Virus record (IMG/VR): IMGVR_UViG_3300021256_000068
DNA from: an uncultured virus (IMG/VR IMGVR_UViG_3300021256_000068)
Taxonomy: Duplodnaviria > Heunggongvirae > Uroviricota > Caudoviricetes
Direction: 5' to 3' (one strand)
DNA: 59,309 nucleotides
The notes under the pieces are model-generated. The model was not told where the DNA came from, ran no database searches, and saw only the letters and a program-made list of their open reading frames with translations. Position numbers and translations under genes: made by a program. This document shows, one piece after another, positions 2,490 through 59,309 of the stretch (positions are counted from its first letter, which is position 1; the number at the start of each line of letters is the position of its first letter).

Positions 2490-5400
2490 TTAGTTAAGAG
2501 GATTTCTTCTAATCATCTTTGCTAATCTACGAATTAATTTGTCTTGATATTTAATAGTGTTTACAGTTAATTGACAATTGCCGTCATTACGTAAATCTCT
2601 TGAAATATCAGTTATGAATAATAATTGAGATAATGCTTCATAAATATCATCTCTATCATTTGTGTAATCCTCTGCGGAAATCTTGATACCTTCACCAATA
2701 TGAAGTTCAGGTCCACGATAATACTTAGGATTATAAGTATATTTAGGATTTTCAGTTCCGTCACTATTATCTAATGTTTCAACATCTTGAACTAAATCAA
2801 TTAAAGATATTGAATAGCTCTTTTCAGGGTACTTTTGGTCTTCAAAAGCATACTTTGCCATCGTAAGAAGCTCTTCAGATGTAGTTGCTGAGTCATTAGA
2901 ATATGAAGTTTCAAGGAATAAATATGGATATTCTTCATAGAATGAACGCCATAAATCATCTCGTTTTTGTAATAATAACTCATAATTACTTGTACCAGCA
3001 TCTACAAAGTGGGATGTTAAGTAAGTAATTGCAATACCATTTCAACCAGTATAATCAGGTAAATATAAACCAACAGATTGATTTAAGAAAGTTGCCCAAT
3101 TACATCCACCTGTTTGAATTGTATAGTATGAAATTTTATCCGCAATTTTTGTGAAATATAGATAATTAGTAGATACGTTTTGTGTACGCTCTAACATCTT
3201 ATCTACCTCACTTTGTTGTTCAGTAGAAAGTTGATTATATGTGTATAGTTCACTATTTTCTATTTGAGGAGGTACATCACTTCAAGTAATCATGTACTGT
3301 TTATCAGTAGTTTTGATAATCTTAGGTACATATACGGAATTTAATACTACATTTGTGTTTGTTTTAATAGCTACTTCAAAATGATTAACAACTTTATCTT
3401 GTTTAATACGTCATTCATCAGGAACAAATATATCACATAACAAGCTTGCGGCAGAAGCTTCATTTCAATATAATTGAAGATTTGATTCGATTAATGCCGC
3501 ATGTTCACGAAGTGGAATTAATGAGCTATCTCCAAGAGTATATTCATATCAGAAGTCACCATTAGTTGGATTACTAACTAATGTACTACTATGCTCTGTT
3601 ATAGTTACGTCATAATTAAAATCTGTATATGGAGCATACCCATTAATTGAGGTTGCTGAACTCTCAATATTAAATTGATAATTAATTATATCAGGAGTAA
3701 CTGATTGATAATTATACCTGTACATTCTGACATATTGATTAATCTGTTTGTCAAAAGTGTAATAAGTATATATTTGAGGTACTTTATATAATAAGTTGCC
3801 TAATAGTTGATTAATTGTATACACTCTTTCATCTTTACTATTATACCATTCATAAATGTTATCTTGTAAATGATTACGTAAATCATACTGTAATGCCGCA
3901 GGAGTCATTTTAACTTCTTGTTCAATGTAATATAATTTTTCAACTATATGAGGTTTACTTTGTAGTTCACTGATATTAAATTGTTTGCCATATTGGTCTG
4001 TGATTGTTTCAGTAAATATTTGATTTATTTTTGTTGAAATACTGGTACTTAAATCTTCAAGAACGCCATCAATAATATAATATACAGCATATTTCTTATC
4101 AAAATCATCTTCATCTACATCATCATCTTCGTCTATATCTTCAACTGGAAGCTGAAGTACTTGAGTTCTGTTTAAAATAATTCCTTTATTAATAATATCA
4201 TAATCACTGTATTGATTTAATGTTTCACCAAAACTATGTGTATAAAAATCTGGATTAAGTAAATCAATTACCAATAAATTAATATCATCTGATAGATTAG
4301 CAACTTCACTTGCACGTACTCTCGTATATGTAATAGTTTTTCTATATTTATAATTATTGAAATTTGTAGAATGAGCTATTATATTACCAAAAGTATATGC
4401 TAACGAATTAGCGTCTCCATCTTTGATTGGCTTTATTGAATAAAAATATTCTTTTGGAAAGTCACTCATAAAATCATCAAAAAGTTCATTAGAATCTTTT
4501 GCTACTCGGTATCCATTAAAAGATTGGAATATACCCTTATTACCTAAACTACAACTAGAATAATTAGAAGTATTTTCACTTATACGAGTATAAAAATTTT
4601 GATAATTAGTAGACGTAACTAATGTCATTGAAGTGTTTCCATTATAAATTGTATTAAGTGGGAAATTTTTGAAATATGCACTATGTTTTTTACTGCTTCG
4701 ACTTTTATATGGAGAAAATTGAAGATATAAATTCTCAGATAAGTGAGAATTACTACCTTTATATCCACCTAAGACTAAGAAATCATTACGCATAGCTCGT
4801 CTAAATCATGATTTTAAAGCAGAACCTCCAAACATTTCTATAAAGAAACTTGTAATTTCTCAACCTATACTTATATCTGCAAGTTTTCCTCATCCTAAGA
4901 AATTATTATCTGTGTTTTGGTACTCATTATTTGGATTTGGATATTCTTTATAATCACCAACGTCCGTGTCAATCCAATTGACATTATATAAATCAGACAA
5001 TGATTCTTCTGAATAATCTTTTTTAATTTTTAAATTAGAACCTGCTCTATATAAATAATTCTTTAATATGTCTGATGAGTATATTGGTTGATAAAATACA
5101 AAACCATCACAAGTAGAAGAATTGTCAGGTACAAATTTAATAGTATCTGAATTTAATACAGCATTTGCATTTTGTCCTACATATAAAGCCTTATTTCCTA
5201 ATTGCCAAACAAAGCCAGCTGGTCTCGTGTATGTATGACCATTAACAATAATTTTACTATCACTAAATAGATATATTTTATTTCCATCAAAAGCTATTCC
5301 GTCTTCATATTTTTTATTACATACAAGATAATTACTATCTTTTTCATATATCTTACATTGACAAGGATAATAAACGTTATCAACTTTTATTGCTATATGT

Positions 5401-31115: not shown

Positions 31116-31147
31116 AGACTAGGATTAACCTAGTCTTTTTTCTTTTT
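31114..31147. terminator. Bidirectional intrinsic terminator
   Basis: AAAGACTAGG-ATTAA-CCTAGTCTTTTT between convergent genes. Confidence 0.75.
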
Positions 31148-32704
31148 ATATTTATCTTTCTGTATTGAATTCCAAGCGATAATTGCTTTAAGTAATTTTG
31201 CATTCATTTTATTTGCTATTGCTGGCACATCTTTATCTAAACAATGAGATTGATAATAAGGATGGTCATCATATACAAAAGTATGAGAAGGATTTATACG
31301 AGGGTCTAAAATAAATAGCTCTCTTAAATCTTCATAATCAACACCAAGCTGATTTGCTATTTCATAGAATTGTGTACAGAATGCAACTTTCGCCGCAAGG
31401 AAACTATTCTCCATGTATTTATCTAGTTCCGCAGTAGTACTATCAACTATATGGAAAGTATGTCTTGCATCATATACTCTTTGTAATAACTGTTGAACTT
31501 TTCGACAATAACTCTTTTCGCCACCAAGAATAGTAAAATTGAATTCAAAATTATTGCAATGTTGAGTACCGCCATAGAATTCAGGAGAGAAAATAATTGG
31601 ACGTTTAAATTCTTCTCTGAATTGTTTTGTTGTTCCAGGTAAGATTGTTGATTTAATTATAATAATATTTGCACTAGTTTCTCTAATTGCATCTTTTACC
31701 GCACTTAAATCACAATCGCCTTTTTCATTGAATGGAGTATCTACGCAAATGAATGCAAAGTCATATACAATATTTCGCTTTGTATTAAATTGCGGCTTAA
31801 ATTTATCGAAAATATCTGGTTGTAAAACTCTAATCTCATTTGCTAAATTATGACCAACTACACCATAGCCAACAATTAATACGTTAGGTAATCCTGCTGG
31901 TCTTGGTGGTCTATTTTGTGGAATTCTTACTTTAAAAGTTTGCTGTTTTTTTATTATTCTATCAAGGAAAAAATCAACATCTGAACTATTATAGCGTCCA
32001 ATTTTAACATCAATATCTTTAAATTGATCATACATTTTTTCTAATAATTTACGCAAAATTACTTCGTGTTGTTCTGGATGATCAACTAAATCTTCGTATT
32101 TGAATGAAAATTCGCCGCTTTCATTTAATTCATCTATATAATCAATAAAATATGGTGAACGTCTATCACAACGAACATTATTACCAATTAAGCTTTTATC
32201 GTCAATGTGTTGAACTAAGCATGGACGATAACGATAATGTGGAATATTTAAAGATTGAATTGTCGCTTTCATTGTTGTTTCAGGAGTACAACGTTTTGGT
32301 CTTTGTCCCGCAAGAATTTTATTTATCTCTTGAATAAAGATTGGAATATAAGTAAGCGGAATGTAAGTACATTGATTGTAACAGAAATAGTTAACTTGAT
32401 CTTTTCCTTCTACTTCTCCTGAGTGGAATAAATCCATTGGGAACGTAAAGAAATTAATTATTTCATCTGGTCGTTCATTAATTACTGCTTCAATTCTCTC
32501 TTTGAAGTTTTTACATAAAACTATATCATCTTCCATTAAAACTATACCACCATCAGATTGACCTGACGCCGCTTGCTGTAATTGAGCCGGAAAGATGTTA
32601 ATAAATTGACGATTTGCATCGACTAGTAATTTATAGTCTATTTGTTTAAATGATGGATGAAGAACTCTATCGCCGCAAGTTCTTACCCAATATGTGATTG
32701 TCAT
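31130..32704 (-). CDS. Glycosyltransferase (GT-A type) fused to a UDP-glucose/GDP-mannose dehydrogenase-like domain
   Basis: N-terminal IVLMEDD and PCLVQH; C-terminal VGYGVVG, IKSTILPGT, FSPEF, KYMENSFLA, DPRI and HCLDKD. Confidence 0.8.
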   Translation of the reverse strand: MTITYWVRTCGDRVLHPSFKQIDYKLLVDANRQFINIFPAQLQQAASGQSDGGIVLMEDDIVLCKNFKERIEAVINERPDEIINFFTFPMDLFHSGEVEGKDQVNYFCYNQCTYIPLTYIPIFIQEINKILAGQRPKRCTPETTMKATIQSLNIPHYRYRPCLVQHIDDKSLIGNNVRCDRRSPYFIDYIDELNESGEFSFKYEDLVDHPEQHEVILRKLLEKMYDQFKDIDVKIGRYNSSDVDFFLDRIIKKQQTFKVRIPQNRPPRPAGLPNVLIVGYGVVGHNLANEIRVLQPDIFDKFKPQFNTKRNIVYDFAFICVDTPFNEKGDCDLSAVKDAIRETSANIIIIKSTILPGTTKQFREEFKRPIIFSPEFYGGTQHCNNFEFNFTILGGEKSYCRKVQQLLQRVYDARHTFHIVDSTTAELDKYMENSFLAAKVAFCTQFYEIANQLGVDYEDLRELFILDPRINPSHTFVYDDHPYYQSHCLDKDVPAIANKMNAKLLKAIIAWNSIQKDKYKKKKD

Positions 32705-32778
32705 TTGCTTGTTCACTTCCTTTAGTATTAGTATAACAAAAGAAAAAAAGAATAGCAAAAATTGCTATTCTAAATTGT

Positions 32779-34672: not shown

Positions 34673-35434
34673 TTACTCTTTATCAATCGAATTTTTCGCC
34701 GCTCTGGTGTACAATGAAGGATCATCGTAATGTGTATGATACTTCCAAGGATTAAACAACTTAAAAATACCAAGTATACCAAATTTTCCAACACTTACAC
34801 GTTTAGGTTTAATAAAACCAAATAATAATCTTGGTGGTAAATATCCAACAATATCACACTTATCAGCGAAATTGTATATCTCTTTGCAACATCTATTTAG
34901 ATATCTCTTTATTTTTCTTCTATTGAAAACATTTGTTTTGTACGGATTAACTGAGCCATAGGTGTATAAGTAGCTTCTTATTCCAAAGTTATGATAAATA
35001 TCTTGCGCACAAAGTATCGCTTGCCCGCTACCAAGTGACCAACCAATGATTTCTACTTCCGCTCTTGGGTGCAATTGTAGTAGAAAATCTAATTTATTTC
35101 TAATTCTATGCTTCATAGCTTTATACATTGCAGCCCATCCATTGTGCACTCTAAGAGTGATTTTTTCGCCGCTATCTATGAATGAGTCATAGTAACGTTC
35201 CACGAACATAAGGTTAGTGTACCAGTCAGCCATACCATCTGTTTCTTCAAAGTTAATTTGAATTACGTCACGATCTGGTTCGTAATGCATCTCCCAATCT
35301 GCGCACATAGTTTTGCCTTTGTATTCGTATTGTACTTGCTCGTATTTGATTTTATATCTAGCTTTGCCAGTTTTATTGCAATCGTTAGAAGTATCTATAA
35401 AATATTGTGGGAAAGATAATCTTTCGTATTCCAT
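34673..35434 (-). CDS. Lipase class 3-like alpha/beta hydrolase
   Basis: RVHNGW, IIGWSLGSG nucleophile elbow, YTYGS, DIVGYLPP and a C-terminal His. Confidence 0.85.
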   Translation of the reverse strand: MEYERLSFPQYFIDTSNDCNKTGKARYKIKYEQVQYEYKGKTMCADWEMHYEPDRDVIQINFEETDGMADWYTNLMFVERYYDSFIDSGEKITLRVHNGWAAMYKAMKHRIRNKLDFLLQLHPRAEVEIIGWSLGSGQAILCAQDIYHNFGIRSYLYTYGSVNPYKTNVFNRRKIKRYLNRCCKEIYNFADKCDIVGYLPPRLLFGFIKPKRVSVGKFGILGIFKLFNPWKYHTHYDDPSLYTRAAKNSIDKE

Positions 35435-51488: not shown

Positions 51489-51590
51489 AATTCATTGAAA
51501 TTTTTTAATGAGATTAGTTAATTATATATTGACAAAATGAAGAAAATACTATATAATATAATTGTAATAATAGGAAAGGAATAAAATTAT

Positions 51591-51890
51591 ATGATAAGAA
51601 AGACAGTTGAAATTGATTTAACAGGTGAATATTATGCAGTTCAAAATATACAAATAGATTCTGCTGGAGGTATTAATGTAAATCCTATAGTTGCAAAAAA
51701 TTACTACGCAGAAGCCGATAATTATATTAAGGATAAAATTGTACAATTACAAATTATGTATGGAAAAGATAATGTTATTTTTAGTTTTGACCCAGTAAAG
51801 AAGAGATATACAGTAAAAGTTTCATATGATGCAGAAGTGGCTAAGGGTAGTTTTATTGTTATTTATGCCATCACAAAACTTTATCTATAA
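51591..51890 (+). CDS. Hypothetical protein
   Basis: Own promoter (51529) and RBS. Confidence 0.65.
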   Translation: MIRKTVEIDLTGEYYAVQNIQIDSAGGINVNPIVAKNYYAEADNYIKDKIVQLQIMYGKDNVIFSFDPVKKRYTVKVSYDAEVAKGSFIVIYAITKLYL

Positions 51891-51984
51891 AATTTAAAAT
51901 CTTATTGACAAAGAGTAAAAAGTATTATATAATATAATTGTAAAAGATAGATAGAGAATATATGATTTTTAAAGGAGGATTAGT

Positions 51985-52191
51985 ATGACAGTATATAATA
52001 GTTATAACAGAATAGTTGCTTTTGAAGGTTCTTATCAAGAGTGCTTAGATTGGATGTTCAATCAGGCTGACTCATTAGGTAACGGTGCGAAGTTATATCG
52101 TACTTGGACTGACGAGAATGGAGATACATTCTATGATGTCGGTAGAGTTTATATCTTCAACGGTAAGCCTGAAAATAATACTAAAAATTAG
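51985..52191 (+). CDS. Hypothetical protein
   Basis: Own promoter (51905); AAGGAGG RBS. Confidence 0.7.
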   Translation: MTVYNSYNRIVAFEGSYQECLDWMFNQADSLGNGAKLYRTWTDENGDTFYDVGRVYIFNGKPENNTKN

Positions 52192-52291
52192 TTAAAATCT
52201 TATTGACAAAGTATGAAAAATACTATATAATATAATTGTAAAAGATAAGATAAAGATATTATTTTATTTATCTAGGAAAGGATTGGGTTTT

Positions 52292-52603
52292 ATGGAAAAT
52301 AGAGAATTAATTAATTGTGTTGTAAATACAACTATTGACTTCTTACGTGAAAATTACAGAGGTTTAAATAGTGAATTCTATTGTGAAGTTGAAGATGTTA
52401 ATTATGGATATGATGAAGGCGATTATAATGATGCATATGTAACAGTTAAATGTAGATGCGGTCGTTATAGAGAAGGCGGAGATAAAGATTACAACTTCAA
52501 TTATGACTTCACTTTAAGTGATGTTCAAGATAAATCTGCTGACTTTATTGCTGGTATGATTCATGTTATCTTAGCAGTAAAGATGGACTTCTATGACATT
52601 TAA
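52292..52603 (+). CDS. Acidic hypothetical protein
   Basis: Own promoter (52203) and RBS. Confidence 0.65.
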   Translation: MENRELINCVVNTTIDFLRENYRGLNSEFYCEVEDVNYGYDEGDYNDAYVTVKCRCGRYREGGDKDYNFNYDFTLSDVQDKSADFIAGMIHVILAVKMDFYDI

Positions 52604-52664
52604 AAATTATTGAAAATAAGTTAAAAACTTATTGACAAAACCTGAAAAGTATTATATAATATAA

Positions 52665-53365
52665 TTGTAAAAGATAAGATAAAATATTTATTTTAAAGTG
52701 AGAAACCTTATGGGTTGAAACAAAACTACGGGTTCGTTCTCACAAGTGCCATATCTAGGGACGGAGTTGCAACTTAAAGTCGAAAGATAGCCCGAAGGCA
52801 ATGAAAAGAGTGTTGGGTTATGGCTAAAAAATATTTTAAAAATTATCTAAAAACTTATTGACAAACCATACAAAGTATTGTATAATATAAATACAATAAG
52901 TTAATAAAGAATAAAAGAATTAATGTTAAGACGAACAATCGAACGGAGTGATCGACCACGATTGAGAGGTTCGTGCTGGAGTGACAGTCTTCGGAAAGTG
53001 AGTGAAGAATAGAGTTTCCCATCTCTAGAAAAATGCCGACATAAGAAATACTCATGGGGTCGGATAAAATCAACCAAAAACATTATTACTTTTATTCAAA
53101 AACTTATTGACAAAGTCTAAAACTTATTATATAATATTTATGTAATAAGATAAAGAAAAATAAAAAATTATTTGAGGAACAGCTCCCACTCAGGCGTATA
53201 CCCCTCGTTAAAAAACAAAGAAGATGAGCGTTAGTCCACGACACGGACAACTTAATGGCAATGGTAACTCTAAGGCGGAGTTCTAGGATGGCAACCTGTA
53301 AGACCTTATCTCGTTATTGAGATGGCAAAAGACTTAGTCCTGCTGATGTTAGCGGCGCCACTTCC
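52665..53365 (+). ncRNA. Series of short promoter-driven putative ncRNAs
   Basis: Promoters at 52632, 52858 and 53107, each followed by GC-richer hairpin-forming sequence with no RBS-led ORF. Confidence 0.45.
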
Positions 53366-53370
53366 TATAT

Positions 53371-53448
53371 GCCCGATTAGTCGAACCGGTCAAGACACCA
53401 CCCTTTCAAGGTCGGAGATCGAGGGTTCAACTCCCTCCTCGGGTACCA
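53371..53448 (+). tRNA. tRNA-Glu (TTC), with one bulged base in the anticodon stem
   Basis: GCCCGA/TCGGGT acceptor; CCACC-CTTTCAA-GGT(C)GG; GAGGG-TTCAACT-CCCTC; encoded CCA. Confidence 0.8.
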
Positions 53449-53601
53449 AATAAAAATCAATGGAGAAAATCTAACATTGCGGCGGCAAATCGAACGACAC
53501 TCCTTAACAACGGTATGCGAGCAAAACACGCAATTAATTATTCCTTCATAAAAATTGGTTCTAAGGTTTACACCCTCCTTTCATTACCTTAGAACCCACA
53601 T

Positions 53602-53678
53602 TGCAGTTGAGTGAAACGGATAATCATACAAGGCTCATACCCTCGTGATAATGGGTTCGACTCCCATAACTGCGTCCA
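53602..53678 (+). tRNA. tRNA with CAT anticodon (Met/fMet; Ile2 not excluded)
   Basis: TGCAGTT/AACTGCG acceptor; CTCATAC loop; ATGGG-TTCGACT-CCCAT; encoded CCA. Confidence 0.85.
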
Positions 53679-54057
53679 AATGGCGGACCAAGTTGGTTAG
53701 TTTCCAGTGCAAATCTGGTTTTCGTCCCAAAACACCCACGCGGCACTAATCAGAGGTGCTAAGCAAAAGACGTCAAAACGTGAATTGATGTGCCGCACCC
53801 TTTCCTAAATAGGAACAAGTTAGGCTAAGACTTGTAAAATGAAGTATGGCTAGGTAGGTAACCCGAATGACACCGAAAAAAATCTTTGAAAATAATGTAA
53901 AAGTTATTGACAAAGTGCATAAGATATTATATAATATATATGTAATAAGATAAAGAGAATAAATAAAAAATTATTTCAAAGTTAGGCGAGTTAAAAAGTT
54001 TTTGAATAAATGAAAAAACTTATTGACAAAACCTAAAAAGTATGATATAATATATAT

Positions 54058-56586
54058 GTAAGGAACAAAAGAGAAATAATTATCTGAACTCTGAAGCGAG
54101 TGTTCGAGCACCTCCTCTCGAATGCTCTCTTGAGAGTTCAGCTAACTCTCCCATCTCATTCAAGATGGTCGGAAGATTCCAATCGCAAGACGCCAGTTCT
54201 CGGACTTCGGTCGTGGACACAATGCGATTAATAAATGATTGACGGACTCCGAGATATACCTATAGCAGGTTGAATAGAAATAAACCGTGCCGATACCTCT
54301 TCTCGTTACGAGGTAGGGACTCCAACACTTCCTTTATCCAACTGTTGGTTGACTTAAAACACCCACTAAGTGAACAGGGTATGGGCTAGTCTGACCAATA
54401 AGTCCACTTTGAGGTTCATAGTTTTCCAAAACTAATAAAAACTATTGCGTTAGTTGATACGATAGGAAACTCGTGGTAGGTACTGGGCGGGAAGTTACAA
54501 GGTTTGTTAGACCGATAACCCACTAAAACCTTTAAGTTGTAGTTGCTTATAAAACTGCTAATAGGAACTAAGGTACTTTATGTAAGTTTGCACTTAGTTA
54601 CCGAAAATGATAAAAACTGCCGTAGAACGTGCTTGGTAATTGCTCTAACTACGAGATAATACTCTTAGAGTATAAAACACTGGTAATTATCACACGCAGG
54701 TTACCGATTAGCGTGTCTAAAATTGGAAGTTCCAAGTAAATAGATTGGTCGGCGTCTGTTTCGTATTTCACAACGTCGTGAGTTTAAGACAAATTGTCGC
54801 AAAGCAAGAGTTCTTAACTAAAATTCCTTAGGTAGCTTAAGCTCTTCACATCAAAAATGAAGCGATGGTATGTAGTTTTCTATGATTGTTCAAGTTCTAC
54901 ATCAAAACCAAAACTGAACTCAATTACACGTACAACATAAAGGCGTTTGATTGACGTGTATAAATAAAGGGATGCCGCAAACTATCTTGCGAAAGACCTT
55001 ATCGGCTAGTAATAAGATTTGTCGTGATATGATACGGAAGAGATAAGGTTGCCTCCAAACTGGGAGGGATAACAAATGCAGTAAGGTTGAGTAATATTAA
55101 ATTATTGCGAGCAATTGGCTGGTTGTGGCGTATCCACAATAAAAGTATCCAGTTTCAATCCCTTTAACACGTGGGCGTAGTGGACCACCACCGTGACCTG
55201 TGCGGTCAGGGCGTAGATGAGATATTCACTTCTATCCGTAGTAGATATTCTTTCGTTACAATAAACTCGAGTTTAAAAATGTAAAGTTCTCGAAAAAACT
55301 TTCATGGTTGAGGAAACCTTCCCTACTTGCACTAGGGCATCAACATTCCGATGGCGATTATTAGAGCCTTGAATACTAATTGTGCGGCAACCATTGAACG
55401 AGGAACGCAGACCTTGCGAGATGGGCGATATGCTGGCGACACCTGAGTGGCGGGCGTCCACTTGACATTTTGAGCATTTTTGTTTCAATAGGAAAAACAA
55501 AACCGTGGTCTGCACGAAAAAAAGATGGTTTTTATAATATGTTTACCAATAAACGTATGAGCTTTCCGTTGTTTCCTGAAATAAACAATGTGGCGTTGTA
55601 AGTTTGAACAGAGAGAACTTTCAGTCTACCACACACTTAGCGGTGGGAACCTTGAGAGTGATAATGGGAACTCTTCGTATGACACGTACATCATTGACTT
55701 TCATAAGTTCAACAGGAACTCTATAGTGGCATATGACACTATCTTCTAAAAACCCTCAATGCGATGCGATGCATTCGAAGCCTCTCCATTGAGCCCCACC
55801 CGACTGCGAGAGATACAACGCTGTCTAGATGCTGACGCCGTGCTTTGACGGTGGCAAGTTGGGTACATAATCGGGGTTAGTTGTGGCAACTAGGAAAGCC
55901 ACACAGACTGTTCTCAATAAGAAAAGGGACACGTACCATAGGTGCGTAGCGAAAGCGTGCTGGTGCAAATCCAGTCAGTCTAATGATAAAAAGAACCATT
56001 CATTATATTTGGTCAGTGAGAGAACACTAAAAACACATTTGGAGTCAATTCTAAGATAAGTCTCGACTCGTTAATAAACAAAACTTATCGACAGTAATAC
56101 GTTGGCGGAGTATGTAGGTGTACGCAGCATGAGAGTATAATCAGTTAAAAGCTAACTCTACGGGATTATACCACCTCTCCATAACGGTGACCCGAAGCAA
56201 GAGAGCGACGACCCATCCCTAACTCTTCCGTATTATGACAGTGCTGGGGCAGGCAAGACCTGGGACGCACGAACTTCTGACTACTCGAAAGGAAGTAGTA
56301 ACCGTCATACTGCGGGTCCAGCAGTCACTGACACTCGCCATAGGATACCTTTTATACGCCGTGTCCCCAAATGGCAAATTAACGGTCAAGTAGCATAAAC
56401 CTGTGACCACATAAACTAAGTATGCCGAACGGTTTGATTAGCCTTCGTTAATATAGTAATTAGTAACTGATACAATCACTTAGCGATTGTTCCGAACACC
56501 TTCGGGGTTCGAGAGGTCAGTAATTTTCACTGAGTTTGATAACCGTAAAATAATACTCAGCGTCCGTGCAATACGGACTTTTTTTA
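54058..56586 (+). ncRNA. About 2.5 kb putative structured non-coding transcript(s)
   Basis: Tandem promoters at 53907 and 54023; no plus-strand ORF of 60 aa or more; raised GC; hairpins and pseudoknots; terminator at the end. Confidence 0.6.
56562..56586 (+). terminator. Intrinsic terminator
   Basis: GTCCGT-GCAAT-ACGGAC-TTTTTTT. Confidence 0.85.
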
Positions 56587-56828
56587 TGCCTTGAATTGAA
56601 AGCGGAAAAACACTTCGGACCGTGGCGCCGAACCTCGATTACGCCGCGTAAACTTTTGGGCATAAAAATTTATGTTTAAGTAAAATTTCGCACGGTTTCC
56701 TTTACTTAAAAGTGACTAAGCCGATTTTAAGTAAAAGAAACGGTTATTATTCGCGGACTTATTTAAAAAATCATTGACAAAAGGAAAAAGATAATATATA
56801 ATATTAATATAAAGAAAAGAGGTACAAA

Positions 56829-57374
56829 ATGAATAAGTTTTTCGCACATTTAAAAACAATAAAAATTCATAGAAAAGCCGTTAGGCATTTTTGCTTTAAA
56901 ATGGGGATACCATTACAGGGATTACTGCACGACTTATCGAAGTATTCTATAACAGAGTTAAGTCAATATAAATACTACACTGGCAAGCATAGTCCTCACG
57001 AAGAAATGAGAAATAAAATAGGATATTCTAATTCTTGGTATCATCATAGAAATAAAAATAAACATCATTGGGAATACTGGATCGATTCGCTCGAAAGAGG
57101 AACTGCGGTAAAAATGCCATATAAGTATGTTATTGAGATGTTGTGCGATATGTGCGCGGCAGGATATGCTTATAATGGTAAAAATTGGCAACCAAAAGAT
57201 GTTTTAGAGTATTGGGTAAAGCATAGCGGATCTCATCGCATTATCAATCCAGCAACAATCGGACTTTACACTGTTTTATTAAAGAATTTAAGCGATTTTA
57301 ATGATTTTGATAAGTTCGCTGATTGGTATAAAGGTGCAAAGGATTCTTTGAAAGCTTGGTATAAAAAACAATAA
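56829..57374 (+). CDS. HD-like metal-binding protein (DUF5662-like)
   Basis: H...H, HDLSKY, HH..NKHHWEYW and MP.KY..EMLCD motifs. Confidence 0.75.
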   Translation: MNKFFAHLKTIKIHRKAVRHFCFKMGIPLQGLLHDLSKYSITELSQYKYYTGKHSPHEEMRNKIGYSNSWYHHRNKNKHHWEYWIDSLERGTAVKMPYKYVIEMLCDMCAAGYAYNGKNWQPKDVLEYWVKHSGSHRIINPATIGLYTVLLKNLSDFNDFDKFADWYKGAKDSLKAWYKKQ

Positions 57375-57464
57375 AATGCTCTTTTATAGGGCATTTTTTA
57401 TTGACAAAGAGAGAAAAATATAATATAATATTAATATAAGATATAAGGAAAGGAAATATATAAA

Positions 57465-57812
57465 ATGCAATTTATACAATTTAAAACTGATATGCGTGGA
57501 ATAGAATATAAAGTACAATCTCCAGACGGGACAATAGAAACACGTAAAGAGGATATTCCTATTGCAGTAGGTGCGTGTCCAAAATGCGGCGCAATTTTGT
57601 TTAGTCAAGAAGGAATGATTGGCGAAACGTTACATAAGATTGCTTCTAAACAAATGGGAAATACTGCCGCTTACTGTCATAATTGCGGCGAAAATTACTG
57701 CGTTGGTCCAGTTCTTAATGCACAATATGAAATTATTGATACTGTTGATGAAGAGGAGAAGAAAGATGACTCAAGCGGAGAAAATGCTAATTCTACTACT
57801 GAAAACAAGTAA
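57465..57812 (+). CDS. Zn-ribbon protein
   Basis: CPKC and CHNC; promoter at 57401. Confidence 0.7.
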   Translation: MQFIQFKTDMRGIEYKVQSPDGTIETRKEDIPIAVGACPKCGAILFSQEGMIGETLHKIASKQMGNTAAYCHNCGENYCVGPVLNAQYEIIDTVDEEEKKDDSSGENANSTTENK

Positions 57813-57951
57813 TTTCAATAGTTTATTGGATTATTATGGACAATTTTTTATTTGTTTTGATGAATTAGGACGTGAAGTTGAAATAAATAAAGAGGATTTT
57901 GAATATTTATGCAGCCTTGTGCCGCAAGATAAGATTGTGAGGGCAGAATAA
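57766..57951 (+). CDS. Small hypothetical protein
   Basis: GAGGAG upstream of ATG 57766; coupled to the next gene. Confidence 0.55.
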   Translation: MTQAEKMLILLLKTSNFNSLLDYYGQFFICFDELGREVEINKEDFEYLCSLVPQDKIVRAE

Positions 57952-57952
57952 A

Positions 57953-58372
57953 ATGATAGATAAGAAAGCAAAAGGACTTACTATTGAGCAATATGCAGAT
58001 AATGTAGGTATGTTAGAAAGTTATTTAGGATTATTACAAGATGAAGATGTTGATGACGCCGCATACATTATGATGATGTATTTAATGCGTAATAATGTTT
58101 TTATGGTTAAATCAATTCTAGTATTAGCTGATTATTTAAGTAAGAATGGATTGCTTAATATAACTGAGAATGGTGATATAGTGATAAAGGGCGAAGAAAT
58201 TGATGCTAACGAGAAGTTTGCTTTGGGTGAAACTTTTTGTTTCGTTAAAGACATAGCACCTTTTATGGAAAAAATTGGAGCTGAAGAGTTAGAAATGTTA
58301 GCAATTCTTTTTCAAAATGAAATGTTAAAGAGTGTAGATGATACAAATTCAAATGATAACGAGGTACAATAA
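57953..58372 (+). CDS. Acidic hypothetical protein
   Basis: GAGG RBS; TAATG coupling to the next gene. Confidence 0.65.
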   Translation: MIDKKAKGLTIEQYADNVGMLESYLGLLQDEDVDDAAYIMMMYLMRNNVFMVKSILVLADYLSKNGLLNITENGDIVIKGEEIDANEKFALGETFCFVKDIAPFMEKIGAEELEMLAILFQNEMLKSVDDTNSNDNEVQ

Positions 58373-58932
58373 TGATTTGGGATAGTAATAGCGTAATACT
58401 TGTATTTTTAATAACTGTGCTTATTATAACAATAATATATCAATTCACTGAAAGGTCTGACGATGAAGAGGTTATAACGTATCAAGCGGACCCAGATGCC
58501 ATTGAGAAGGCGGAAGAGAAACAATCTGAAATTTATAATCAAAGAGTTCAATTAGTGATTAATAGCGTAAATGTTCTTTGGAATAGTTTAGCAATAGATA
58601 AATGGTTTGAATGCGACCAAACAAAAGCCGAAGAGTCTGTTATAACTAATTCTGTAATTTTCTCAGATGATGTTGTTTGTGTATATTCAACATATATTCC
58701 TCGTTCATTAAAAATCACTTGTCAACTTAGTTGGGCAAAACAAAAAATGTATGTTCGTGTTGAACAACAAATGGAGATTGGTGTTATTGAAGTTGAACGA
58801 GAAATAAAAGTTAAAGCGGGAATAATTTCAGTAATGCAATCAGAAGACATTGCAGAAGAATATTTTAATTCGATAATGGAATTAACTAATTCAGCACAGA
58901 AAGATGAAACTGAAGTAAAGAGTGAAAATTAA
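58372..58932 (+). CDS. Membrane-anchored hypothetical protein
   Basis: N-terminal hydrophobic helix; terminator overlapping the stop. Confidence 0.7.
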   Translation: MIWDSNSVILVFLITVLIITIIYQFTERSDDEEVITYQADPDAIEKAEEKQSEIYNQRVQLVINSVNVLWNSLAIDKWFECDQTKAEESVITNSVIFSDDVVCVYSTYIPRSLKITCQLSWAKQKMYVRVEQQMEIGVIEVEREIKVKAGIISVMQSEDIAEEYFNSIMELTNSAQKDETEVKSEN

Positions 58933-59067
58933 TCACTCTTTATTTTTTTCAAAAATTGTGTGATTTTTATTGACAAAACCGGAAAAATACTATATAATAT
59001 AATTGTAAAAGATAGAAAAAGATATAAAAATAAAAAACTATCTCTATTTTGGAAAGGAAGAAAACAT

Positions 59068-59309
59068 ATGCACGCAAATATTAAATCACCATACAAACAA
59101 TATATGGAAGGAGTAATTCAATATCCACTTTTAACAAGAGAAGAGGAAGTTGAATTAGGAACATTAATACAAAAAGGTTTAGCAAGTGATGCCACTGCTG
59201 AAGATAAGGAAAGAGCGAATGCCGCAAGAAAGAGATTGATTAATTGTAATTTAAGATTAGTTGTAACTATTGCTGGTTCATATACTAATGACCACTTAGA
59301 AAAAGATCG
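59068..59309 (+). CDS. Sigma-70 family (RpoD/SigA-like) sigma factor, partial
   Basis: YPLLTREEEVEL (region 1.2) and ARKRLINCNLRLVVTIA (region 2.1); own promoter at 58970. Confidence 0.85.
   Translation, partial: MHANIKSPYKQYMEGVIQYPLLTREEEVELGTLIQKGLASDATAEDKERANAARKRLINCNLRLVVTIAGSYTNDHLEKD

What the first reader, a model, noticed from the sequence alone, without database searches (positions are those of the whole stretch)
54058..56586. About 2.5 kb promoter-to-terminator non-coding unit beside tRNAs
Seen: two consensus promoters, no credible ORF, higher GC than the flanks, many stems and a clear terminator. Established: large ornate ncRNAs such as GOLLD and ROOL occur next to phage tRNA clusters but are under about 1 kb each. 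Inference: several such RNAs in tandem, or an unusually large new RNA. I cannot assign a family by eye.
Basis: partly seen in the sequence, partly recalled or inferred. Interest (0 to 1): 0.7.

Follow-up and report, generated by a model that had tools for sequence, protein, structure and literature searches.

The report
Giant noncoding RNA gene, rumen phage
A phage from ruminant guts carries a 2.5-kb gene that is read into RNA but not protein; it fits no catalogued RNA family and is about three times longer than the known large phage RNAs that sit beside tRNA genes.

Summary
Window 54058-56586 runs from two perfect sigma-70 promoters to a hairpin-plus-T terminator. It has no credible ORF under any stop-codon reading and is 41.9% G+C against 31.2% elsewhere. 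Rfam 15 finds only the two neighbouring tRNAs. The window is a novel phage of about 110 kb.

RNA-library contigs from three studies cover the unit; one contig of 2,356 nt is identical to it. Three close homologues (92-98% identical) and more distant relatives seen in public runs show a mosaic design. Conserved cores alternate with swapped cassettes, and one cassette is 51% identical in a phage whose flanks are 99-100% identical.

Some local hairpins carry compensatory changes (6 observed against 1.3-1.9 expected). Overall folding energy is not exceptional. An internal cloverleaf-shaped, tRNA-like module lies at 55904-55983.

Distant relatives of this phage carry ROOL or GOLLD-like RNAs in their tRNA islands, but this RNA shares no sequence with them.

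Best reading: a new family of very large, early-expressed phage noncoding RNA, of the same kind as GOLLD, ROOL and the phage K lncRNAs. Open points are whether it stays whole or is cut at the tRNA-like module, and what it does.

The parts
53907..53935 (+). upstream promoter of the tandem pair (TTGACA-17-TATAAT, 12 of 12)
   Evidence: Conserved in homologue L146, with an insertion between the two promoters.
54023..54051 (+). proximal promoter (12 of 12, TG-extended); predicted start near 54058
   Evidence: Conserved in L146 with one change in the spacer. The start site is inferred, not mapped.
54058..56586 (+). the non-coding transcription unit (2,529 nt, 41.9% G+C)
   Evidence: no ORF, G+C; no Rfam family. 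RNA-library contigs of runs X3, X5 and X11 lie on it, and X3 has one contig covering 54213-56568 with 0 differences.
54080..54145 (+). 5' hairpin with 29-nt arms
   Evidence: inverted repeat I2, 83% complementary; z -7.28, 0 of 200 shuffles. The one change in L146 (54124 G to A) turns a U-G pair into U-A.
55078..55345 (+). hypervariable cassette
   Evidence: 51.1% identity to L146, whose flanks 52145-53890 are 98.3-100% identical. Two types are seen in alignment A1. A third type shows as a replaced segment in runs X3 and X11 (joint 55189 to 55413).
55189..55213 (+). conserved hairpin island inside the hypervariable cassette
   Evidence: The 17-nt core is identical in both cassette types. 55192/55210 changes C-G to A-U. 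By inspection of A1, 55190/55212 changes A.C to C-G. The third type's loose end (table 7, place 55189) again reads a 5-bp hairpin at this spot (by inspection).
55346..55625 (+). most conserved core
   Evidence: 99.6% identity to L146 over 55346-55600. Blocks 55413-55502 and 55591-55625 are also kept in the divergent relative's contigs (table 8, records 6 and 12).
55585..55872 (+). domain with compensatory changes
   Evidence: RNAalifold: 78 pairs. 55612/55701 occurs as A-U, G-C and G-U; 55629/55647 changes C-G to U-A. 55656/55673 and 55823/55836 change G-C to A-U in local hairpins. Shuffle control: 47 of 500.
55904..55983 (+). tRNA-shaped (cloverleaf) module without a usable anticodon loop and without encoded CCA
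   Evidence: ARAGORN finds it only at a 90% threshold, as 'tRNA-Tyr (ata)'. Its MFE is a cloverleaf, z -2.67, 3 of 200 shuffles. The Rfam tRNA model gives no match at E up to 10. It has a T-arm-like hairpin at 55959-55975. Block 55946-55979 is kept in the divergent relative.
56562..56586 (+). intrinsic terminator
   Evidence: RNA-library contigs of X3 and X11 end at 56568 and 56545 with no loose end listed there, while DNA run X9 has depth in all later bins.
53371..53448 (+). tRNA-Glu (ttc), context
53602..53678 (+). tRNA-Met (cat), context

Best explanation
Window 54058-56586 is one transcription unit for a very large non-coding RNA of a new family, carried by a novel phage of ruminant guts (about 110 kb, 31% G+C).

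Host sigma-70-type RNA polymerase starts at two tandem consensus early promoters. It transcribes a strong 5' hairpin, a body of about 2.3 kb, and stops at an intrinsic terminator.

The body is modular. Conserved cores are kept in all relatives. They alternate with cassettes that are exchanged between phages that are otherwise nearly identical. An internal tRNA-shaped module lies at 55904-55983.

The RNA acts as RNA, either as a stable scaffold or decoy or as a precursor cut at the tRNA-shaped module. It fills the same genomic niche, beside or inside the phage tRNA island, that ROOL and GOLLD fill in distant relatives of this phage.

Shown: the anatomy, the absence of coding capacity, presence in RNA libraries, the mosaic conservation, and a few compensatory pairs. 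Inferred: the start site, early timing, a single transcript, stability, and any function.
For: (1) Signals and composition: two 12-of-12 promoters and a terminator on one strand. G+C is 0.419 against 0.312, about 4 sd above any other window of equal size.

(2) Not coding.

(3) RNA libraries: 14 of the 20 runs listed as holding the stretch are RNA libraries, and the 20 rows come from 10 studies. When laid, RNA runs X3, X5 and X11 (three studies) have contigs on the unit. X3 has one contig of 2,356 nt (54213-56568) with 0 differences. Contigs of X3 and X5 bridge the tRNA-shaped module (records 9 and 20).

(4) A family exists: three homologues of 98%, 92% and 94% identity come from metagenome contigs. 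Divergent relatives in X3 and X11 match in collinear blocks: 54199-54409, 54562-54602, 54637-54692, 54801-54969, 55413-55502, 55591-55625, 55747-55810, 55946-55979 and 56103-56298. The segments between these blocks are replaced, for example 152 nt by 59 nt and 88 nt by 56 nt.

(5) Diversity is focused on the RNA: L146 is 98.3-100% identical over 52145-53890. Inside the unit it is 51% (55078-55345), 94% (54801-55077) and 91% (55601-55872) identical.

(6) Compensatory changes: 58 substituted positions lie outside the cassette. Six both-side canonical changes fall in local stems, against a null mean of 0.24 (0 of 1000 uniform permutations). With permutations kept within 15, 30 or 60 nt the null means are 1.88, 1.49 and 1.30, reached in 18, 8 and 2 of 2000.

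(7) The 5' hairpin has z -7.28. The tRNA-shaped module folds as a cloverleaf with z -2.67.

(8) Niche: among 41 distantly related phage records, ROOL is over its cut-off in 2. GOLLD matches below cut-off (101-104 bits, E about 1e-29) in 3, plus one further faint match (19 bits, E 4.6e-4) in a fourth record. The five strong matches lie between tRNA genes.
Against: Folding energy of the body is ordinary: z -1.55 (2 of 20 shuffles), -0.22 (7 of 20), -0.10 and -0.64 for the two cassette types. Most 150-nt windows lie between -2 and +1.

GNRA and UNCG hairpins are not enriched: 10 against 6.5 +/- 2.5, reached in 64 of 500 shuffles.

On the single-sequence MFE, 108 cells are broken against 15 compensatory and 32 one-sided. 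Most of the broken cells lie in the poorly alignable cassette.

The best long-range inverted repeat (55029-55051 with 56214-56236) is not kept in L145.

With four sequences the RNAalifold structure beats shuffles only 47 of 500. The six compensatory pairs share positions (10 distinct positions, about four hairpins).

All RNA evidence is from assembled contigs, which show neither strand, ends nor level. The contig starts at 54141-54213 coincide with a break in the DNA run's contigs at 54160/54162, so they say nothing about a 5' end.

No homologue was found outside one phage lineage.
Confidence: 0.6

Rival explanations
1. An operon of several smaller stable RNAs. The primary transcript is cut by RNase P and RNase Z at the tRNA-shaped module, and perhaps elsewhere. 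This would give pieces of about 1.85 kb, 80 nt and 0.6 kb, or smaller, that act separately, as with the small stable RNAs made from phage tRNA-cluster transcripts.
For: A cloverleaf-shaped module lies at 55904-55983. A second T-arm-like hairpin with the same loop lies just after tRNA-Met, at 53704-53718. A promoter-like -35 box with one mismatch lies at 56080-56093 (family D5).
Against: RNA-library contigs bridge the module in two runs (records 9 and 20), though a contig does not prove one molecule. Only one promoter pair and one terminator were found. The Rfam tRNA model does not recognise the module.
Confidence: 0.3
2. A specificity-carrying or arms-race RNA. The conserved scaffold presents exchangeable cassettes that recognise, or are recognised by, variable host or competitor molecules. 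It could be a decoy for a host defence factor that binds tRNA or other RNA, or a guide-like segment.
For: Divergence is concentrated in cassettes inside a phage background that is otherwise 99-100% identical. At least three cassette types occur at one position. The module is tRNA-shaped but has a closed anticodon arm.
Against: Neither the RNA nor the second cassette type has significant complementarity to the phage genomes in hand. No repeated binding motif was found. No host genome was available to test. The cassettes could equally be unconstrained peripheral expansions.
Confidence: 0.15
3. A transcribed but functionless spacer or decayed DNA that happens to lie between a strong early promoter and a terminator.
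For: Folding energy is unexceptional. No homologue was found outside one lineage. Part of the unit tolerates wholesale replacement.
Against: G+C is 11 points above the genome, the opposite of decay in an AT-rich phage. Collinear conserved cores are kept in divergent relatives. Compensatory changes exceed local-permutation nulls. The unit has its own tandem promoters, conserved in L146.
Confidence: 0.08
4. A protein-coding region hidden by an alternative genetic code, frameshifts or very small ORFs.
For: With TGA as the only stop, a 486-codon frame opens on the minus strand.
Against: That frame lies opposite to all the signals, and by my own estimate its chance probability is only about 0.06. 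No single reassignment opens a long frame on the + strand; the longest is 112 codons with TGA read through and 202 with TAA read through. Periodicity is 1.28. Pfam finds nothing significant in the six longest ORFs. No Shine-Dalgarno-preceded ORF of 12 or more codons exists. The tRNAs next door read Glu and Met and are not suppressors.
Confidence: 0.02

Closest known systems
GOLLD RNA (Rfam RF02032)
   Same: A large phage or prophage non-coding RNA of unknown function, often near tRNA islands. One studied member lies downstream of a Met-tRNA, and the family has a conserved part plus a less conserved part (PMC12286853, passages read). Here the unit lies about 380 nt downstream of tRNA-Met. GOLLD-like matches sit in the tRNA islands of 3 of 41 distant relatives.
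   Different: No covariance-model match at E up to 10. No blastn or nhmmer similarity to the relatives' GOLLD-like loci. The unit is about three times longer than the 'more than 800 nucleotides' quoted for GOLLD. Ornate structure is not shown here.
ROOL RNA (Rfam RF03087)
   Same: Encoded in phages and prophages, often near tRNA islands, and first found in rumen data (PMC12286853, passages). It is over its cut-off in 2 of 41 distant relatives of this phage, between tRNA genes.
   Different: No model match and no sequence similarity. The ROOL model has 574 positions against about 2,500 nt here.
Phage K lnc001 and lnc002 (Kayvirus)
   Same: Long non-coding RNAs in intergenic regions next to tRNA genes. 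[quoted passage not shown] The authors liken them to GOLLD and ROOL by position and abundance (PMC9241854, section 7 and passages of the discussion read).
   Different: They are 635 and 1,154 nt by the paper's table. blastn in 'distant' mode against 50,697 phage records found no match to this unit.
Small stable RNAs of the phage T4 tRNA region
   Same: Non-tRNA stable RNAs co-transcribed with phage tRNAs and released by tRNA-processing enzymes. This is a model for the processing rival.
   Different: They are roughly a hundred-odd nucleotides long (recalled, not checked here), against a unit of 2.5 kb with its own promoters.

Membership tests
GOLLD (RF02032) | match to the family covariance model | tested here: not met
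   No match at the gathering score or at E up to 10 on 53300-57000.
GOLLD (RF02032) | phage or prophage location near tRNA genes | tested here: met
   tRNA-Glu and tRNA-Met lie 380-690 nt upstream on the same strand. The window holds phage structural genes.
ROOL (RF03087) | match to the family covariance model | tested here: not met
   The model does work on relatives G007 and G017 (313 and 283 bits).
ROOL / GOLLD | homo-oligomeric RNA-only cage | not testable with these tools
   This needs cryo-EM or native gels of the transcript.
tRNA (RF00005), for module 55904-55983 | match to the tRNA covariance model or to the ARAGORN default | tested here: not met
   No Rfam match at E up to 10 on 55880-56010. 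Not reported by ARAGORN at default settings. Reported only at the 90% threshold.
tRNA-like structure, for module 55904-55983 | cloverleaf fold with acceptor, D, anticodon and T arms | tested here: met
   The MFE equals the centroid and is a cloverleaf, z -2.67, 3 of 200 shuffles. The anticodon arm closes to 7 bp with a 3-nt loop.
Phage K-type lncRNA | intergenic, beside tRNA genes, own early promoter, abundant RNA | tested here: inconclusive
   The position and the consensus promoters are met. Abundance cannot be measured from contigs. There is no sequence similarity.
Protein-coding gene under an alternative code | long open frame with codon periodicity or homologues | tested here: not met
   Only tRNA reaches significance. 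All other matches have E of 1.8 or more and lie far below their gathering scores. ARAGORN finds no tmRNA.

The most novel reading that the evidence does not exclude
A new class of giant phage RNA of about 2.4 kb, the largest non-ribosomal functional RNA known from a phage. It would be made early from consensus promoters and be common in ruminant-gut RNA samples. It would be built as a conserved scaffold with an internal tRNA mimic and exchangeable hypervariable cassettes that phages swap in an RNA-level arms race with their hosts.
Probability: 0.3. Interest if true: 0.85.

Novelty: new variant of a known kind. Interest (0 to 1): 0.7.

Why it matters
Large phage RNAs next to tRNA islands (GOLLD, ROOL, the phage K lncRNAs) are abundant and conserved, yet their function is still unknown.

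This unit extends that kind in three ways. It is about three times larger. It holds a tRNA-shaped module. It has cassette-like hypervariability inside phages that are otherwise identical. The last point hints at selection acting on the RNA itself.

The family is present in RNA libraries from several ruminant studies. Its ends, processing, structure and population diversity can therefore be tested directly on public and new data. Related phages with ROOL or GOLLD in the same niche offer natural comparisons.

Tried and rejected
Searches for homologues that found none:
- blastn 'distant' of the unit and megablast of 16 kb of the window against 50,697 phage records.
- Four exact or IUPAC pattern scans of IMG/VR. 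Searches gave none. One search gave nine chance hits with no extended similarity. One search gave a genuine tRNA-Tyr plus two unrelated GC-rich loci.
- One genome-contig scan gave a single chance hit.
- BLAST of the unit against 50 whole viral records with a distantly related capsid protein gave 0 of 50.

Synteny anchors:
- 42 loci encoding the downstream DUF5662 protein carry no similar upstream DNA.
- The two upstream proteins gave nothing usable.
- The two closest phage contigs (95% capsid identity) end at window 49743, or elsewhere, and do not reach the unit.

Missing cover in RNA runs: X3 and X5 have depth in only 11 and 13 of 30 bins, with none on the flanking genes 56648-58500, while DNA run X9 has depth in all 30. 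The tool states that a part without cover is not evidence, so I do not count it.

Contig starts at 54141-54213 as a processed 5' end: rejected, because the DNA run's contigs also break at 54160/54162. This is probably an assembly effect of the inverted repeat.

Other analyses that led nowhere:
- Repeated motifs or a sponge design: no k-mer above the shuffle maxima.
- Antisense targets in the phage: none.
- Domain boundaries from pair probabilities: uninformative.
- Long-range helix 55029-55051 with 56214-56236: not conserved.
- CRISPR-like or tandem repeats: only the promoter family repeats.
- No whole genome is held for the window.
- Earlier notes of this scan: no look-alike stretch by sequence.
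- Literature searches for a described RNA of this kind returned only GOLLD and ROOL papers and phage transcriptome papers. I found no report of a phage RNA of about 2.5 kb in those listings.
Full report
**The sequence as described.** Window 54058-56586 lies inside a larger ORF-free zone, 52601-56807, the only stretch of over 1 kb in the window without a stop-free frame of 90 codons.

Two perfect TTGACA-17-TATAAT promoters lie at 53907-53935 and 54023-54051. A 7-bp G+C-rich stem at 56562-56578 is followed by a run of T. All are on the + strand.

G+C is 0.419 against 0.312 outside the zone. No other window of 2,529 nt exceeds 0.386.

The promoters are genuine consensus sites but are not peculiar to this unit. 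The window has 24 perfect sites, all on the + strand between 29997 and 58998, where 0.06 are expected. The unit therefore belongs to a densely promoted, presumably early, arm of the genome.

**Not coding.**
- The longest stop-free frame is 89 codons.
- Reading TGA, TAG or TAA through singly gives at most 112, 111 and 204 codons, no better than a coding control read the same way.
- Three-base periodicity is 1.28, against 3.2, 4.8 and 67 in three coding controls and 1.13 in a fourth.
- Pfam finds nothing significant in the six longest ORFs.
- No ORF of 12 or more codons has a Shine-Dalgarno word, whereas the flanking genes do.

**What the window is.** It encodes a portal protein, a minor tail protein, virion proteins and a fragment of a sigma factor. 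No whole genome is held for it. It has no near match among 50,697 deposited phages.

Two IMG/VR contigs share a capsid-like protein at 95% identity and are collinear with the window. Both stop before the unit; one ends at window 49743. CheckV rates them 66-71% complete, which puts the genome near 110 kb.

**Known families.** Rfam 15 finds only tRNA-Glu (53371-53448) and tRNA-Met (53602-53678). This holds at gathering scores over the whole window and at E up to 10 over 53300-57000. GOLLD, ROOL, OLE, RNase P, tmRNA and the intron families are therefore excluded as far as covariance models reach.

**RNA evidence.** Of the 20 public runs listed as holding the stretch, 14 are RNA libraries. The 20 rows come from 10 studies of ruminant or other animal gut samples, and one DNA run may be the source of the window.

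I laid three RNA runs from three studies and one DNA run on 51500-58500.
- RNA run X3 has a single contig of 2,356 nt on 54213-56568 with no difference.
- X5 has contigs from 54155 to 56403.
- X11 covers the unit and parts of the upstream non-coding zone.
- Contigs of X3 and X11 end at 56568 and 56545, in or just before the terminator, with no loose end listed there. The DNA run goes on.

All of this is contig evidence. It shows presence in RNA libraries, not strand, ends or level.

The contig starts at 54141-54213 coincide with a break in the DNA run's contigs at 54160/54162. They are best put down to the 29-nt inverted repeat.

**A family with a mosaic design.** One scan of metagenome contigs with a 21-mer from a conserved block gave three homologues:
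- L144 covers 54141-55959 at 98% identity.
- L145 covers 54443-56556 at 92%.
- L146 covers 52145-55872 at 94%.

L146 is 98.3-100% identical to the window over 52145-53890, including a whole upstream gene without a single change. Inside the unit, identity falls to 93.9% (54801-55077), 51.1% (55078-55345) and 91.2% (55601-55872). The patterns of shared differences switch between sequences along the unit, so recombination has shuffled the blocks.

RNA runs X3 and X11 also hold a more divergent relative, in X11 at higher contig depth than the window's own type. It matches in collinear blocks from 54199 to 56298. The segments between the blocks are replaced, for example 152 nt by 59 nt and 88 nt by 56 nt. 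Conserved cores and exchangeable cassettes thus alternate over the whole length.

**Structure.** The evidence is mixed.

For structure:
- The 5' hairpin has z -7.28, with 0 of 200 shuffles folding as well.
- Of 58 substituted positions outside the cassette, six both-side canonical changes fall in local stems, for example 55823/55836, 55883/55902 and 55656/55673, all G-C to A-U.
- Uniform permutation gives a null mean of 0.24 (0 of 1000).
- Permutation within 15, 30 or 60 nt gives 1.88, 1.49 and 1.30, reached in 18, 8 and 2 of 2000.
- RNAalifold on 55585-55872 adds 55612/55701 (A-U, G-C and G-U) and 55629/55647.
- Inside the hypervariable cassette a hairpin at 55189-55213 is kept in both types with changes on both sides. 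By inspection, the 30-nt loose end of the third type reads a hairpin there too.

Against structure:
- Folding energy of the body is close to that of shuffles.
- Tetraloop hairpins are not enriched.
- The six compensatory pairs involve only 10 positions.
- The RNAalifold structure beats shuffles only 47 of 500.
- The strongest long-range repeat is not conserved.

I conclude that several local helices are under selection. An 'ornate' global fold is not shown.

**A tRNA-shaped module.** A pattern taken from a conserved block hit a genuine class-II tRNA-Tyr in another virus, which pointed me to 55904-55983.
- ARAGORN reports this stretch only at a 90% threshold.
- Its minimum-energy fold is a cloverleaf (z -2.67, 3 of 200 shuffles).
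- The anticodon arm closes to 7 bp with a 3-nt loop.
- By inspection, no CCA is encoded, unlike the two real tRNAs.
- The Rfam tRNA model does not match.

It is a tRNA-like element, not a tRNA. It could mark a processing site or mimic tRNA. A T-arm-like hairpin with the same loop also follows tRNA-Met at 53704-53718.

**The niche in related phages.** I searched 41 records that share a distant capsid-like protein (about 26-32% identity; one, G003, at 52%, plus the two 95% relatives, which do not reach the unit).
- ROOL is over its cut-off in 2 records.
- GOLLD matches in full length at 101-104 bits (cut-off 150) in 3 records, and a fourth record has a faint 19-bit match (E 4.6e-4).
- All five strong matches lie between tRNA genes.
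- The present RNA has no blastn or nhmmer similarity to any of them.

The position next to phage tRNAs, which the literature gives for GOLLD and ROOL (PMC12286853, passages) and for two abundant phage K lncRNAs of 635 and 1,154 nt (PMC9241854, section 7), is thus shared. The family is not.

**Verdict.** This is a real, dedicated non-coding transcription unit of a new family. It is the same kind of thing as the tRNA-island RNAs of phages, but about three times larger, with a tRNA-shaped module and with cassette-level hypervariability. Function is unknown.

I favour an RNA that acts as such, as a scaffold or decoy, possibly after cutting at the tRNA-like module. The steps from anatomy to mechanism are inferred.

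I found no shared sequence with it, so I treat it only as a parallel.

Noticed in passing
window 29997-58998, + strand: There are 24 perfect TTGACA-17-TATAAT promoters, all on one strand, against 0.06 expected. This is a very dense array of consensus host-type promoters in front of small genes, as in the early regions of large lytic phages.
   Followed up: partly
window 52604-53370: Three more perfect promoters (52632, 52858, 53107) each head short ORF-free stretches before tRNA-Glu. RNA-library contigs lie on 52869-53037 (X11) and 53047-53228 (X5). Folding z-scores are unremarkable. These are possible small RNAs.
   Followed up: partly
window 53704-53718 and 53557-53597: A T-arm-like hairpin with loop TGCAAAT sits 26 nt after tRNA-Met, with the same loop as in the tRNA-shaped module. 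An 11-bp hairpin lies just before tRNA-Met (z -3.37, 1 of 200).
   Followed up: no
L158 about 3470-3660 and L159 about 3470-3660: Two GC-rich viral contigs share an ORF-poor unit of about 200 nt. It holds the motifs GAAGAAAAGGG, GCGAAAGC, GGTGCAAATCC and a G-rich 3' box. There is no Rfam match at E up to 1. This may be an uncatalogued RNA element. Its first three motifs also occur, in the same order, in the window's tRNA-shaped module.
   Followed up: partly
L160 1078-1150: The ROOL-bearing relative G007 encodes a tRNA with anticodon tta, which reads the stop codon TAA, inside its tRNA island. This hints at stop-codon recoding in that phage.
   Followed up: no
L162-L164 (G027, G032, G033), 1501-1957: Full-length GOLLD model matches score 101-104 bits, below the 150-bit gathering score, and lie between tRNA genes. 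These are probably divergent GOLLD members that Rfam's threshold would miss.
   Followed up: no
window 53936-54022 versus L146: The spacer between the two tandem promoters differs by a 33-column insertion and replacement in L146, while both promoters are kept.
   Followed up: no
window 58960-59307, 31130-32758 and 34673-35434: These regions encode a phage sigma-factor fragment (Sigma70 region 1.2), a 542-aa protein with UDP-glucose dehydrogenase domains, and a class 3 lipase-like protein.
   Followed up: no
window 54834-54843: A perfect 10-nt palindrome (AGCTTAAGCT) lies inside a conserved part of the RNA, identical in all four sequences. It could be a self-pairing loop of the kind that joins copies of GOLLD and OLE, but this was not tested.
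   Followed up: no
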